Source: the human T2T-CHM13v2.0 reference genome, Homo sapiens
Direction: 5' to 3' (one strand)
Assembly: GCF_009914755.1 (NCBI RefSeq)
Contig: NC_060930.1
Length of the DNA stretch: 64,000 bases
Below the pieces are notes generated by a model. The model had not been told where the DNA came from and did not search any database. It saw nothing but the letters and a program-made list of their open reading frames with translations. Positions 14,871-18,508 of the stretch are shown here, piece after piece. Numbering within the stretch: the first letter of the stretch is position 1; each line of letters begins with the position of its first letter. The translations under genes and the position numbers were made by a program.

Positions 14871-17390
14871 TAATTCTAAGGATATTTGTCATTTCTAAGA
14901 AAACCTTCTTTTTCACACATCTAATTTTTGTTTTAAGTATGTCAGCATATATTTCTGATATTATTCATTTATTTATGTTAAATATTTATACTAACATTCT
15001 TCTAGTTTGGAGAGGGGTTCTAGTTTTTCTGTTAATTTTGGTGCTCTGTCTTGAGGATGTTGAGTTGTACTTGTCTATTGGTTTTTGTTACAAGCGATGG
15101 TGTTGAATTGCCAAATAGAAGAATACCTTTCCAAAACTTAAATGTTATTTACTACTGAAGTTCAGGTTAATGAACTTTCTGATTCTGAGAACTTGTCTTA
15201 GCAGATGAGGGTGAATGTTGGTTGTGCTGCCGGGATGGGTGTATGAGGTGCTGGCATTTTGAATCTGGGAGCTCCATGTTCTTACCTGAAACATTTTTAT
15301 TTCTTAGCCCCTAGTGACCACATCAATCACTTAAAGTGTAGCTAGATTGCAAGTCTTAGCTTGGAGAAAAATGAAAAGGGTAATTTCTCTCTTATTCTCC
15401 TCTTTTTTATTTTATTTTTTCCCTCTGCCTCCTTTATGAAGGGGAGTTTGCTGCGGCTTGACATGGCTTTTCTCAGCTTCCAACATTTACACCAAAAGCT
15501 CTTAATTTGGCTCAGTTCCTTTTGATTCCTCCCTCTCCCACTCAGACTCTTATTTTTCTCTTGGTGCTAAACCAGGATGAGGAGCAAGATCATGTCAATG
15601 TTGTTACAAGAGAGGATTAAGGGCCAAACCTATTTATTGGCCTTTGTATTGCAGAGTTTAGTTTTTATTGTACTCAGTTGTGGCTTCTATTTGTCAGACA
15701 CCTGTGCTTACAAGTGATAGAAGTCCAACTGAAATGGCTTTGGAAGAGAAAGAAAGAGAAAAAGAAAATATGGAGACTGAGGTAGGTCACAGAATATAAG
15801 AATGAGCAGCTGTAACAAGCACAGTTCCAGGGACCAGAGACTGGAATTAAATCTCTGCCCCAAAATAAATGAAGACCTTTGGAACTCTTATTTCAGCTGT
15901 TCTTTTGCACCTTCTCCCTTCTCTTAAATCTACTCCAAGAGGCAACAGACAAGTCTGTTGGCAGTTTTGGAGTCTCATTCATCACATCCATGAAAGCGAA
16001 GAAAAAGCAGCTGTGTTCAAAACCTAGGAGAGGCTCTTATTGGCCCAGCCCAGAGTACTTTATTACCATTTGAACCAATTGCTGCAGCCTTGTGGGTGCA
16101 GTGCCAAGTTGTCTGATTGGTCACTCCCATCATCCCAATGATTTTCAACCTACAGGTCATTACTCTTATCAATTTAGCACCTCTTATCAATTTAGCCACT
16201 ATGGTTTTTTAAACAAGATGGATGAGGCCCAAATAGAATGGAACAGATCATAGTGCATCCCACTTAGTAAGAGTCAGGATTATTTTGTGAAACTTTCGAT
16301 GCTGCAACACATGTGTTTACATATAAGCCTATATATTAGTATTGCAGCACACTTTAAAAATGTATATTTTTTACTCTAGGTCAGTCATACTCCAAAAGGG
16401 TTAAAATTCTTCTCTTTACTGCACGTTTTATGTATTTTATTTCTATTGATAATGCCTCTGATTCCCAGACATAATGCTTTTGGTTGGACTTTCAAAAAGG
16501 ACGGCCTAGAAGATAATTGTTCAACCATGTAATTGCTTCACTTTTCATTACCCTGTGGGTTTATTGGGCAGCTACATCTATTTCTCCTCTGGACTCCAAA
16601 GTCAAAGGTTGTGTTTTGTACGCATGCTTCTTTCTTTACTCTAGGTCAAACTCTATTCCACAGTCCAGTCTGGGAACTGACGTAAGCTTCTAGTTGTTAG
16701 ACAATGGTAGCCATCAAAGAAACTTAAGGTGATCTAAAGTTAGGTTTAATAAAAGTAAATTTTAGACTAACATCTGCCATATGTACAGATATTTATGAAA
16801 CCATCTAACCATCAGATTGCGCCAAATGTTCATTCCTAGCAGATGCAACACCATTCCAGAGACAGGATTTTGTTACCCTTAGAGTTAGTATCAGGCAAAA
16901 GGAAATCAATCTAAACCAATGCTTTGGACACAAGCTTATCTAGAAATGAAGCCTAGGGTATCCTCCATAAAACTACAGGTTACAGACCTTACTGAACTCT
17001 CCAGATCTGGACTCTGCAGAGTCCAGCTTTGGCAGAAATGTGGCTGATAGAGGCCATTACAGGAGCGTCCTTTGGCCTGTAACCCTCTTTTACATCAGCC
17101 TGGCTGACCACCCTAGAATGAGACCTCTTGGGAAAGCTGACAGCCCACAGAGTGATACCTTCAACCAATTGGCACATACATACCTCCCTATAGTAAAATA
17201 TCTAAAGGCTAAATACAATCTTAAACATGCCAAATAAAAAGCACTAAAGCATGTCCCTTAGGCTTGAAGAAATTAATCATCAGTTGACAAATTCATTATA
17301 ACTTGATGGCAAATAAAACAGCCCACATGAACAAAACTGTTTTATAAGTGCTTTTCTGGATACCACATAAAAATCTCTTTCACAAAATTA

Positions 17391-17591
17391 TTAGGTTAAT
17401 GCAAAAGTAATCGCGGTTTTTGCCATTAAAAGTAATGGCTTCCCACAACCAGATGTCCCATGCAAAGTAGTGCCCTCTAATGCCAAACCAAAAGCAGAGG
17501 TCATAAAGACTATATCCCTTACACACACACACACACGCGCGCGCGCGTTAAAATAATGGCAAAAACCGCGATTACTTTTGCACCAACCTAA
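17391..17591. mobile_element. MADE1 (Hsmar1-derived MITE) with a ~108-bp internal insertion
   Basis: TIRs TTAGGTTAATGCAAAAGTAATCGCGGTTTTTGCCATT and AATGGCAAAAACCGCGATTACTTTTGCACCAACCTAA; TA target duplication at 17389-17390 and 17592-17593. Confidence 0.93.
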
Positions 17592-17841
17592 TACAGCTTG
17601 CATTGAAATCCAGTGCTAAACTCAGCTTTCAGGAAACCAATGTGACATAATATTGGTAAAGAAAACAAAGTGGAGAGTATCAGGGTAATGAATGAAAGGA
17701 ATGGAGAGACTTTGTTGAAATACTCTTGGGCATTATCTGCCTATGCTTTTACTTGAACTCGTGGCTGGCTTTTGGTTTTACTTTTTCTTTCCCCTCGAAA
17801 AGTAGGTCATCTGCTCTGCTGGGCTTTATTATCTGGGGACG

Positions 17842-18214
17842 TTACTTGCCCTTGGCCTTGTGGTGGCTCTTGGTCTTCTGGGGCAGAAGCACGCCCTGAA
17901 TGTTGGGCAGGACACCGCCCTGCGCGATGGTGACTTCGCCCAGCAGCTTGTTAAGCTCCTCGCCGTTGCGAATGGCCAGCTACAGGTGGCGCAGGATGAT
18001 GCGGGTCTTCTTGTCGCGGGCCGGGTTGCCAGCCAGCTCCAGGATCTCGGCGGTCAGGTGCTCCAGCACGGCCGCCAGGTACACCTGCGCTCTGGCCCCG
18101 ACACGCTCGGCATAGATGCCTTTGCGGAGCAGACGGCGCTGGAGCCCGGCCAGGGAAGACCAAGTCTGGGACTTCAGCGCCAGCCTCGCCACCCTGCTTC
18201 CCACAACCAGATGT
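17842..18214 (-). pseudogene. H2AC3P: Histone H2A pseudogene, canonical replication-dependent type (likely H2AC3P/HIST1H2APS2)
   Basis: Start codon is ACA (ACA TCT GGT TGT GGG AAG = M-S-G-R-G-K position). Lesions: a +1 frameshift near codon 13, deletion of FPVGRV and of one N codon, and premature TAG at 17980-17982. Ends [21 protein letters not shown]. Still CpG-rich. Symbol is from recalled locus order. Confidence 0.93.
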
Positions 18215-18276
18215 CTCCTGCGAAGTAGCGCCCTCTAATGCCAAACCAAAAGCAGAGGTCATAAGTACTATATCCC

Positions 18277-18310
<34 letters not shown>

Positions 18311-18508
18311 CCCCTAACGGCTAACTTCTCTGGAAGGTGCCTCATCCAAGCAAAGCAGAACTGAAGATACTTTTACATGCCTTTTTCCGTTATTTTTTAT
18401 CCAATCAGACTTTTTCAGACTTCCTTTGAATACAAGTATCTGCAGGATTTTCCTTGTCACCTGTAGACACTTTTTCTCTTTTCAAGGAAGCTAGAAACAG
18501 ATTTTGAT

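What the first reader, a model, noticed from the sequence alone, without database searches (positions are those of the whole stretch)
17391..17591. MADE1 mariner MITE carrying a captured copy of the neighbouring H2A pseudogene 5' end
Seen: a normally ~80-bp MADE1 is 201 bp long. Positions 17440-17547 copy 18198 onward (first H2A codons, 5' flank, CA repeat), about 760 bp away, with 6 mismatches in the ~81 nt before the CA run. The junctions show GC microhomology and a re-copied TTAAAA(G)TAATGGC. Both copies carry the dead ACA start codon. Inference: a template-switch or Pol-theta-type templated insertion at the hairpin apex, after both MADE1 insertion and H2A inactivation. The result is a Pack-MULE-like TIR-flanked cargo. 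Known: Hsmar1 TIRs are bound by SETMAR.
Basis: partly seen in the sequence, partly recalled or inferred. Interest (0 to 1): 0.7.

Follow-up and report, generated by a model that had tools for sequence, protein, structure and literature searches.

The report
MADE1 transposon with locally copied filler
An 80-bp palindromic human transposon relic was broken at its centre and patched with a copy of DNA from 758 bp away (the start of a dead histone H2A gene); this is a real but already described kind of repair scar.

Summary
A single MADE1 element with TA duplications on both sides lies at 17391-17591. It is split at its palindrome centre by a 108-nt insert. The first 97 nt of the insert copy 18198-18294 in direct orientation, 758 bp away, with 6 mismatches. 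Both copies carry the ACA that replaces the H2A start codon. A GC microhomology marks the left junction, and 13/14 nt of the MADE1 apex are present on both sides of the insert.

The unique part of the insert occurs exactly twice in the assembly, so the composite never spread.

The structure is not a one-off. I examined 24 other MADE1 loci with enlarged centres. Ten carry 50-203-nt inserts whose best or only genomic match lies 0.4-3 kb away, in either orientation. Among 240 mock segments from the same loci, none had a comparable local match.

The class is in print as single-copy "Pack-TIRs" made by local gap filling (Tan et al. 2021, PMC8277862). This locus is not among their 33 human cases.

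The initiating lesion, the polymerase and the (CG)6 tail remain open.

The parts
17389..17390 (.). Left TA target-site duplication of the MADE1
   Evidence: sequence. It is included in the inverted-repeat arm.
17391..17439 (+). MADE1 left part, element bases 1-49: the left 37-nt TIR, the 6-nt loop and the first 6 nt of the right arm
   Evidence: many genomic MADE1 copies match query 1-47/49/52 at 92-98%. One search gives L_len = 49. [quoted passage not shown]
17426..17439 (+). First copy of the duplicated apex segment TTAAAAGTAATGGC (element bases 36-49). Its last two bases, GC, are the left-junction microhomology shared with 18196-18197.
17440..17536 (+). Templated filler: a 97-nt direct copy of 18198-18294. 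On the minus strand it reads (TG)n, then the H2AC3P 5' flank and 5' UTR, then ACA TCT GGT TGT GGG AA.
   Evidence: 94% identity, 6 mismatches; the unique part occurs only twice in the assembly.
17454..17456 (-). Copy of the ACA that stands in place of the H2A start codon
   Evidence: sequence, in register (+758) with 18212-18214.
17536..17547 (+). (CG)6 run at the distal end of the insert. It lies in register with the last CA units of the source microsatellite but does not match them. Its origin is unexplained.
   Evidence: (family D2); there is no other such run in the 64-kb window.
17548..17591 (+). MADE1 right part, element bases 36-80 with one G missing. It starts with the second apex copy, TTAAAATAATGGC (17548-17560).
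   Evidence: genomic MADE1 copies match query 156/158/160-201. One search gives R_len = 44, an excess of 13 nt over 80.
17592..17593 (.). Right TA target-site duplication
18196..18308 (+). Parental (source) segment: GC microhomology (18196-97), the first 17 nt of the H2AC3P reading frame, the 5' UTR and flank, and the (AC)15 microsatellite (18279-18308)
   Evidence: It is contiguous with the rest of the pseudogene.
17742..18232 (-). H2AC3P, the H2A pseudogene. It has ACA for ATG at 18214-18212, a frameshift after about 10 codons and an in-frame stop at 17982-17980.
   Evidence: Hub annotation. (translations). Pfam Histone_H2A_C, E 2.1e-19, on 17845-17979(-). The 77-aa piece 17983-18213(-) matched no Pfam family at E <= 0.001.

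Best explanation
This is a single-copy Pack-TIR. A resident MADE1 (an 80-bp Hsmar1-derived palindromic MITE) suffered a break or a stalled synthesis at its hairpin apex. The damage was repaired by local gap filling. A 3' end that already reached element base 49 paired through a GC dinucleotide with DNA 758 bp downstream on the same strand. It copied about 100-110 nt there: the first 17 nt of the H2AC3P reading frame, its 5' flank and the CA repeat. The product was then joined to the other end, which reached back to element base 36. Both ends therefore carried the apex, so 13/14 nt of it now flank the filler.

Shown here: the anatomy, the direction of copying, the single-copy status, the order of events (MADE1 insertion and H2A decay came first), and the recurrence of the same architecture at other MADE1s.

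Inferred: the break-and-repair pathway. My split for the initiating lesion is roughly 50% secondary-structure break or replication stall at the palindrome, 25% Hsmar1 transposase excision followed by interrupted repair from the sister chromatid, and 10% an L1-endonuclease nick at the apex TT|AAAA. The polymerase is unknown.
For: (1) Anatomy: (L_len 49, R_len 44, excess 13 nt, TA on both sides).

(2) The copy is old DNA, not an assembly artefact. It has 6 differences in 97 nt, K2P 0.065 to 0.079.

(3) Direction of copying. The 18198 copy continues into the H2A reading frame, while the 17440 copy is bounded by MADE1 on both sides.

(4) Single copy. With the 201-nt composite as query, only the self match covers 1-201, the source covers 48-146, and every other listed match covers only 1-52 or 156-201 (40 of 1018 candidates were scored). 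The 90-nt unique part gives 2 matches from 2 candidates.

(5) Recurrence. Of 24 MADE1 loci with enlarged centres, 7 have a match of >=50 nt at >=90% within 1.5 kb. None of 240 mock segments from the same loci does (Fisher p = 2e-8). L047 adds a 109-nt match at 84%. L019 and L029 have parents 1.73 and 3.03 kb away, found genome-wide. L032's local parent is 94% identical against 80% for the next best match. The unique part of L023 occurs only as insert plus parent in each copy of a segmental duplication. Orientation is direct in 6 cases and inverted in 4. In the 8 simple cases the left junction lies at element base 43-53, and MADE1-derived DNA exceeds 80 nt by 11-26 nt.

(6) The published model. 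Tan et al. 2021 (PMC8277862; sections 8 and 14 and Supplementary Data 4 read) describe single-copy Pack-TIRs made by gap filling. They report a cis bias (most parents <5 kb away), a median microhomology of 2 bp, and breakpoints skewed towards the inside of the TE.
Against: The right junction shows no microhomology in the present sequence (G|T). The (CG)6 tail is not explained by the present source. It needs either later change in one copy or a further untemplated or self-templated step.

The apex location in my inner-anchor sample is partly forced by the search pattern. Only the outer-anchor sample tests it freely: 5 cases plus this one.

No outgroup genome could be examined, so an empty MADE1 at the orthologous site has not been shown.

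The locus would probably fail the published pipeline's BLAT score cut-off of 100, because only 99 nt align with 6 mismatches. It is not in their list of 33 human cases.
Confidence: 0.88

Rival explanations
1. L1 ORF2p-mediated insertion. The L1 endonuclease nicked the apex at TT|AAAA and reverse-transcribed a local, non-polyadenylated RNA antisense to the H2AC3P 5' end. The 13/14-nt flanking repeat would then be a true target-site duplication.
For: The MADE1 apex is a real L1-endonuclease target. L027 carries an Alu-like insert with a poly-A tail and an apex duplication starting at AAAA. L028 carries a poly-A retrocopy with duplicated AAAGTAATGGC. At least 5 further sites show Alu-like ends in their first 80 nt; I recognised these by eye and did not test them against a library. 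The duplication here is of similar length.
Against: There is no poly-A tail. The duplication starts at TT, two bases before the AAAA where the retro-insert duplications start. The copied segment runs from inside the reading frame into the promoter flank and a microsatellite, so it is not a known transcript. The parent is 758 bp away, and all 10 parents I identified at MADE1 loci lie within 3.1 kb. Insertion of RNA drawn from the whole transcriptome does not predict that.
Confidence: 0.04
2. A mobilised Pack-MULE-like element. The composite was assembled elsewhere, or here, and then moved as a unit by Hsmar1 transposase.
For: Both TIR termini and the TA duplications are intact. Multicopy Pack-TIRs exist in other animals (PMC8277862 abstract).
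Against: There is exactly one composite and one parent in the assembly. The parent lies 758 bp from the element. That is expected for in-situ capture and not after transposition.
Confidence: 0.02
3. Not one element: two independent MADE1 fragments flank a pre-existing local duplication. Alternatively, the repeat is an assembly artefact or chance.
For: None was found.
Against: The left and right parts are collinear pieces of one 80-bp element that overlap by 13/14 nt and carry one pair of TA duplications. The arms differ at only 2 of 37 positions. The two repeat copies differ at 6 positions, so they are not a collapsed or duplicated read artefact. The repeat's E-value is 1e-34. The same architecture recurs at 9 other independent loci.
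Confidence: 0.01

Closest known systems
Single-copy Pack-TIRs formed by gap filling (Tan et al. 2021, Nat Commun, PMC8277862)
   Same: A TIR transposon split internally by a duplicated non-TE segment. The parent lies in cis, a few hundred bp to a few kb away. There is short microhomology at a breakpoint. The breakpoints are close together and internal to the TE. There is a single copy, and the capture came after the TE inserted.
   Different: This locus is not among their 33 human cases; the only MADE1 case there is the PVT1 locus with a parent on chr10. The insert is at their lower size limit and probably below their BLAT score cut-off. The paper's main text does not mention hairpin, palindrome or MADE1 ('find'). 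The stereotyped apex position and the 11-26-nt apex overlap seen here for MADE1 are therefore not described in the parts I read. Their relaxed list of 199 human candidates is not among the supplementary files described, so I cannot say whether this locus is in it.
Pack-MULEs of plants (recalled; described in the Introduction of PMC8277862)
   Same: TIR-flanked captured gene fragments. A gap-filling / template-switch origin has been proposed for them.
   Different: A different superfamily (Mutator rather than Tc1/mariner). Pack-MULEs are often multicopy, with parents in trans. Here there is one copy with the parent in cis and no sign of movement.
Microhomology-mediated template switching, FoSTeS/MMBIR (Hastings et al. 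2009, PMC2621351; only the search listing and abstract start were seen)
   Same: A 3' end leaves its template and re-primes nearby on 2 nt of homology. Either orientation is possible, and the result is a templated insertion.
   Different: Those models were built for large pathogenic copy-number changes. This is a fixed germline scar of about 100 nt at a defined 80-bp palindrome.
L1 endonuclease / target-primed reverse transcription insertions at the same MADE1 apex
   Same: The same target motif (TTAAAA in the loop) and flanking duplications of about 12-18 nt.
   Different: Those inserts end in poly-A and their duplications start at AAAA. This one has no poly-A and its parent is local genomic DNA that includes promoter flank.
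mir-548 family hairpins derived from Made1 (Piriyapongsa and Jordan 2007, PMC1784062; passages read)
   Same: The same 80-bp palindromic element. Intact copies in this genome score 94.1 and 89.4 bits on Rfam RF01061, whose gathering score is 90.
   Different: The composite gives no mir-548 match at E <= 1. Its arms still pair (DNA fold -43.3 kcal/mol, z = -8.2), but around a loop of about 125 nt.

Membership tests
MADE1 (Hsmar1-derived MITE) | An 80-bp element made of two 37-bp terminal inverted repeats around 6 bp (PMC1784062) | tested here: met
   With the insert and the second apex copy removed, the parts are element bases 1-49 plus 50-80. The 37-nt arms differ at 2 of 37 positions. The loop AAAAGT is present at 17428-17433.
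MADE1 (Hsmar1-derived MITE) | TA target-site duplication | tested here: met
   TA at 17389-90 and at 17592-93.
MADE1 (Hsmar1-derived MITE) | Sequence similarity to the dispersed genomic family | tested here: met
   107 matches at E <= 0.001 (40 of 1018 candidates scored), with the halves 84-100% identical to copies on many chromosomes. Intact copies L007 and L010 match Rfam mir-548.
Pack-TIR (criteria of Tan et al. 2021, Methods) | An internal non-TE sequence flanked by two pieces of the same TIR element, each covering at least 10 bp of the consensus terminals | tested here: met
   The 49-nt and 44-nt pieces both reach the element ends.
Pack-TIR (criteria of Tan et al. 2021, Methods) | [quoted passage not shown] | tested here: inconclusive
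   108 nt lie between the MADE1 parts, but only 97-99 nt match the parent. A RepeatMasker-based boundary was not computed.
Pack-TIR (criteria of Tan et al. 2021, Methods) | A unique parental copy with identity >=90% and BLAT score >=100, and an internal:parent length ratio of 80-120% | tested here: inconclusive
   The parent is unique, identity is 94%, and the lengths are 108 against about 110 nt. BLAT was not run. With 99 aligned bases and 6 mismatches, the score would probably fall below 100.
Pack-TIR (criteria of Tan et al. 2021, Methods) | The parental copy is not itself flanked by the TE (within 100 bp), and the copy is not a retrocopy | tested here: met
   In one search, the only match of the composite near the parent is the shared 99 nt, with no MADE1 halves there. 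The copy includes 5' flank and a microsatellite upstream of the pseudogene, and it has no poly-A. Other TE families within 100 bp of the parent were not screened.
Pack-MULE | Mutator-like TIRs with 9-10-bp target-site duplications (recalled) | tested here: not met
   The TIRs are MADE1 (Tc1/mariner) with TA duplications. The resemblance is one of structure only.
L1-mediated (TPRT) insertion | A 3' poly-A tail next to a target-site duplication that begins at the endonuclease cut in TT|AAAA | tested here: not met
   There is no poly-A. The flanking repeat begins at TT (17548), not at AAAA. Compare L027 and L028.
Pol theta-mediated end joining (templated insertion) | Dependence on POLQ; short microhomology; templated inserts usually of a few to a few tens of nt (recalled) | not testable with these tools
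   Only the 2-nt microhomology is visible. At about 100 nt the insert is longer than I recall as typical.

The most novel reading that the evidence does not exclude
The loop of MADE1 is a sequence-defined natural fragile site, and it records many local gap-filling events with a stereotyped signature. Both 3' ends extend 3-13 nt past the dyad, so the apex is kept twice. The filler is 50-200 nt, from 0.4-3 kb away, on either strand. In the partial sample I could examine, 10 of 16 MADE1s that carry foreign DNA fit this pattern and 3 more fit partly. The published human list has one MADE1 case. If the pattern holds genome-wide and across primates, the roughly 80-bp MITE would give dozens of dated, independent events. 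Those events could settle what initiates Pack-TIR formation: hairpin cleavage, replication stall, transposase excision or an L1-endonuclease nick at TT|AAAA. They could also show which ends are used.
Probability: 0.25. Interest if true: 0.5.

Novelty: new member of a known kind. Interest (0 to 1): 0.3.

Why it matters
The locus is a clean, datable scar of DNA repair by local template switching in the primate germline. It duplicated the core 5' end of a histone pseudogene (flank, 5' UTR and first codons) into a transposon, and it destroyed the element's miR-548-like hairpin. By itself it changes little, because the class and its model are published.

The side result may be more useful. Short captures at the MADE1 apex appear common and stereotyped, and they fall below the thresholds of the published catalogue. 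That suggests Pack-TIR numbers in primates are under-counted. It also suggests MADE1 could serve as a natural reporter for how palindromes break and are repaired.

Tried and rejected
1. Rfam on 17200-18500 gave only chance-level matches (E 0.2-0.9) and no mir-548. The positive control on intact copies worked.

2. Pfam on the N-terminal 77-aa reading of the pseudogene found no family at E <= 0.001. Only the C-terminal piece matched Histone_H2A_C.

3. I looked for a second local template for the (CG)6 run. There is none in the 64-kb window.

4. I tried to align H2A paralogues to the copied 5' flank. The only other genomic match (C6:27001890-27002018, 70%) covers the coding part alone, and its locus could not be cut out. 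The statement that ACA replaces ATG therefore rests on the translation T-S-G-C-G-K-Q-G-G and on the recalled H2A N-terminus (Met-Ser-Gly-Arg-Gly-Lys).

5. I tried to fetch 10-kb and 3-kb stretches around the survey sites. As a result, 15 of the 33 outer-anchor sites were seen only as their first 80 nt and were not analysed.

6. Earlier findings of this scan were not open to the session.

7. Pack-MULE-like mobilisation, an L1-mediated origin, two separate MADE1 halves, an artefact and the reverse direction of copying were each considered and rejected. The reasons are given under the rival explanations.

8. Dating cannot separate a transposase-era origin from a later one. K2P is 0.065-0.079, but the 95% range for 6 differences in 81 nt is 2.7-16%.

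Full report
**Observation.**
- A TA dinucleotide (17389-90) precedes 49 nt of MADE1 (17391-17439).
- A 108-nt insert follows (17440-17547).
- Then come 44 nt of MADE1 (17548-17591) and a second TA (17592-93).
- The outer arms, 17389-17428 and 17554-17593, are 40 nt long and 95% complementary. The two 37-nt TIRs differ at 2 of 37 positions.
- The stretch 17438-17536 repeats 18196-18294: 99 nt, 94% identical, 758 bp apart, same strand. All six differences lie in the 81 nt before the CA run. Two are at CpGs that the downstream copy keeps.
- The first two bases of the repeat, GC, belong equally to MADE1 and to the source. This is the 2-nt microhomology at the left junction.
- TTAAAAGTAATGGC (17426-17439) recurs after the insert as TTAAAATAATGGC (17548-17560).
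- One correction: the last 11-12 nt of the insert are (CG)6 (17536-17547). The source has further CA units there. Base-for-base templating can therefore be shown for 97 nt plus the microhomology.

**Identity of the pieces.**
- With the 201-nt composite as query against the window's own assembly, the halves match MADE1 copies on many chromosomes at 84-100% identity. Apart from the self match and the source, every listed match is confined to query 1-52 or 156-201 (107 matches, 40 of 1018 candidates scored).
- Made1 is described as 80 bp, with two 37-bp TIRs around 6 bp, and as the source of the mir-548 family (PMC1784062, passages read).
- Two intact genomic copies (in L007 and L010) score 94.1 and 89.4 bits on Rfam mir-548, whose gathering score is 90. 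The composite gives no such match at E <= 1.
- As single-stranded DNA the composite's arms still pair: -43.3 kcal/mol, z = -8.2, and none of 200 shuffles folds as well.
- The downstream repeat copy is the 5' end of H2AC3P (hub annotation, 17742-18232, minus strand). Read from 18214, the minus strand gives T-S-G-C-G-K-Q-G-G and then loses the frame. Another frame gives a recognisable H2A body with an in-frame stop. Its C-terminal 45 residues match Pfam Histone_H2A_C at E 2.1e-19, while the 77-residue piece before the stop matched nothing at E <= 0.001.
- The ACA in place of the start codon, and TGT at codon 4, are present in both repeat copies. The pseudogene was therefore already damaged when it was copied.

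**Direction of copying, copy number and artefact.**
- The 18198 copy runs on into the H2A frame, whereas the 17440 copy is bounded by MADE1. So 18198 is the parent.
- The 90-nt unique part of the insert has exactly two matches in the assembly, the insert and the parent (2 of 2 candidates scored). No second composite exists, so nothing indicates that the composite ever transposed.
- The six differences between the copies rule out a duplicated-read artefact.

**Recurrence.** I searched the same assembly for MADE1 copies with enlarged centres.
- With exact inner-arm anchors, 70 sites have 0-19 nt between the anchors and 39 have 20-400 nt. The reversed-pattern controls gave 0 in both searches. Eleven sites have 66-260 nt.
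- With exact outer-arm anchors and 100-300 nt between them there are 33 sites. I held sequence for the first 15 in chromosome order, plus two already known. Fifteen were seen only as their first 80 nt and were not analysed.
- The test set was 24 loci. This excludes one copy of a segmental duplication and excludes duplicates between the two samples.
- Twelve of the 24 loci have a local match of the internal DNA within 1.5 kb at E < 1e-4. Seven have a match of >=50 nt at >=90% identity.
- As a control, 240 mock segments of the same lengths were drawn from the same loci. Thirteen had any match and none had a strong one. Fisher p is 4e-8 and 2e-8 respectively.

The cases with an identified local parent of >=50 nt are listed below.

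| Locus | Copied length | Identity | Orientation | Distance to parent | Note |
|---|---|---|---|---|---|
| this locus | 97-108 nt | 94% | direct | 0.76 kb | |
| L023 (chr5, with its segmental duplicate L024) | 119 nt | 91-95% | inverted | ~0.8 kb | unique part found only as insert plus parent in each duplicate |
| L032 (chr13) | 181 nt | 94% | direct | 1.07 kb | next best genomic match 80% |
| L019 (chr4) | 194 nt | 94% | direct | 1.73 kb | next best 81-82% |
| L029 (chr9) | 54 nt | 94% | direct | 3.03 kb | |
| L035 (chr1) | 126 nt | 93% | inverted | ~0.4 kb | |
| L039 (chr3) | 50 nt | 96% | direct | 1.15 kb | |
| L041 (chr3) | 56 nt | 93% | inverted | ~0.6 kb | |
| L043 (chr4) | 203 nt | 96% | inverted | ~0.4 kb | GGCA microhomology |
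| L047 (chr6) | 109 nt | 84% | direct | ~0.9 kb | |

- Three more loci have local matches of 26-38 nt: L016, L030 and L044.
- I classified the other 11 loci by eye from the printed sequences. Two are poly-A retro-inserts (L028, L036). One is a 25-nt insert plus a T run, unresolved (L021). Four are rearrangements of MADE1 DNA alone (L031, L033, L037, L042). Four are adjacent or nested MADE1 copies (L034, L040, L045, L048).
- Of 16 single MADE1s that carry foreign DNA, 10 therefore took it from within 3.1 kb and 3 more did so partly.
- In the 8 simple cases the left junction lies at element base 43-53, and the MADE1-derived DNA exceeds 80 nt by 11-26 nt. The apex is kept on both sides, as it is here.
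- In the inner-anchor sample this apex position is partly forced by the search pattern. In the outer-anchor sample it is not, and all 5 cases there, plus this locus, show it.

**What is in print.**
- Tan et al. 2021 (PMC8277862) define Pack-TIRs, TIR transposons that carry duplicated host DNA. They report 370 in 100 animal genomes and 33 in humans.
- They argue that single-copy cases arise by gap filling independent of transposition. An internal break, possibly caused by secondary structure, is repaired while the template switches from the sister strand to nearby DNA.
- They report that most parents lie within 5 kb, that the median microhomology is 2 bp, that the breakpoints are internal and close together, and that 22 of 33 human cases arose after DNA transposons fell silent about 37 My ago. 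I read the abstract, sections 8 and 14, and passages of sections 4, 7 and 12.
- I read their list of 33 human cases in full (Supplementary Data 4). This locus is not in it, nor are the other MADE1 loci above. Its only MADE1 entry has a parent on another chromosome.
- Seven MADE1 rows occur among the 370, with a median MADE1 divergence of 0.10.
- Their pipeline requires an internal sequence >100 bp and a BLAT score >=100. This locus probably misses the score cut-off.
- A relaxed list of 199 human candidates is mentioned in the text, but it is not among the supplementary files described.
- A search for 'Pack-TIR' from 2021 onwards returned only this paper carrying the term. A search for MADE1 with Hsmar1 and insertion returned 10 papers. 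None is, by title or abstract start, about inserts inside MADE1.

**Mechanism.**
- What is shown: a resident element, a break position at the apex, a templated copy from 758 bp away on the same strand, 2-nt microhomology at entry, retention of the apex on both sides, and no later movement.
- What is inferred: two 3' ends that both extended past the dyad, one to base 49 and the other back to base 36. One end primed on nearby DNA and was then joined to the other. Such ends could arise in three ways. They could be nascent strands of repair synthesis that fall off the sister template once they become self-complementary. They could come from nicks 3' of the loop on each strand of an extruded cruciform. 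Or they could come from a replication stall.
- The use of either strand at other loci (6 direct, 4 inverted) fits template switching.
- I cannot tell whether the first lesion was structural, transposase excision or an L1-endonuclease nick. The endonuclease nick is worth noting because the loop is a proven L1 target (L027, L028). But the retro-inserts there have poly-A tails and duplications that start at AAAA, and this insert has neither.

**Dating.** K2P between insert and parent is 0.065 over 97 nt, or 0.079 over the 81 unique nt. Measured against a recalled human-macaque neutral divergence of about 6-7%, the event falls near the catarrhine ancestor. The 95% range for six differences (2.7-16%) spans both sides of the end of Hsmar1 activity.

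**Unexplained.**
- The (CG)6 run lies in register with the last CA units of the parent: 7 CA plus 6 CG units in the copy against 14 CA units in the parent. It is the only such run in the window. Three readings are possible: CpG decay in the parent, change in the copy, or a self-templated addition during repair.
- One G is missing from the second apex copy.

**Limits.**
- No primate outgroup, pangenome, methylation or ChIP data could be consulted.
- The survey covers 24 loci chosen by exact words, not all MADE1 copies.
- Repeat-family names for the inserts (Alu-like, L1-like) are by eye and from recall.

Noticed in passing
L027 1501-1860; L028 1501-1778; further sites listed (e.g. C14:94646166, C22:31491759): The TTAAAA loop of MADE1 is used repeatedly as an L1-endonuclease target. 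Alu-like and poly-A retro-inserts sit exactly at the apex, with 11-18-nt duplications that start at AAA(A)GTAATGGC. Family names are by eye.
   Followed up: partly
own genome: Among MADE1 copies with both inner-arm words intact, 39 have 20-400 nt at the centre and 70 have 0-19 nt. Many of the 39 are short direct or inverted duplications of the apex itself (e.g. C9:132360663, C3:109529770). This suggests the palindrome centre is generally unstable.
   Followed up: partly
window 17536-17547: A (CG)6 run, unique in the 64-kb window, sits where the parent has (CA) units. Both MADE1 arms also keep two CpGs each (TCGCGG at 17411-17416, CCGCGA at 17566-17571). The copied 5' UTR, in contrast, lost two CpGs that the parent keeps.
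   Followed up: partly
L023 (C5:176480647) and L024 (C5:178451062): A MADE1 with a captured insert and its parent about 0.8 kb away both lie inside an inverted segmental duplication on chromosome 5, about 2 Mb apart. The capture therefore predates that duplication.
   Followed up: partly
L032 about 1707-1880 (C13:28598720 onward): After the captured 181-nt segment, the right arm of this MADE1 is expanded into a tandem array of units of about 29 nt (AATGGCAAAAACCGCAATTACTTACTTTT, at least 4 copies).
   Followed up: no
window 17742-18232 (-): H2AC3P has ACA for the start codon, Arg-to-Cys at codon 4, a frameshift after about codon 10 and an in-frame stop at 17982-17980. Its 5' flank (18215-18300) has no other match in the genome apart from the captured copy.
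   Followed up: yes
window 17001-17032: A perfect-centre 16+16-nt palindrome, CCAGATCTGGACTCTG/CAGAGTCCAGCTTTGG, 88% complementary (pair I2). It overlaps a 15-nt tandem repeat at 16992-17020.
   Followed up: no
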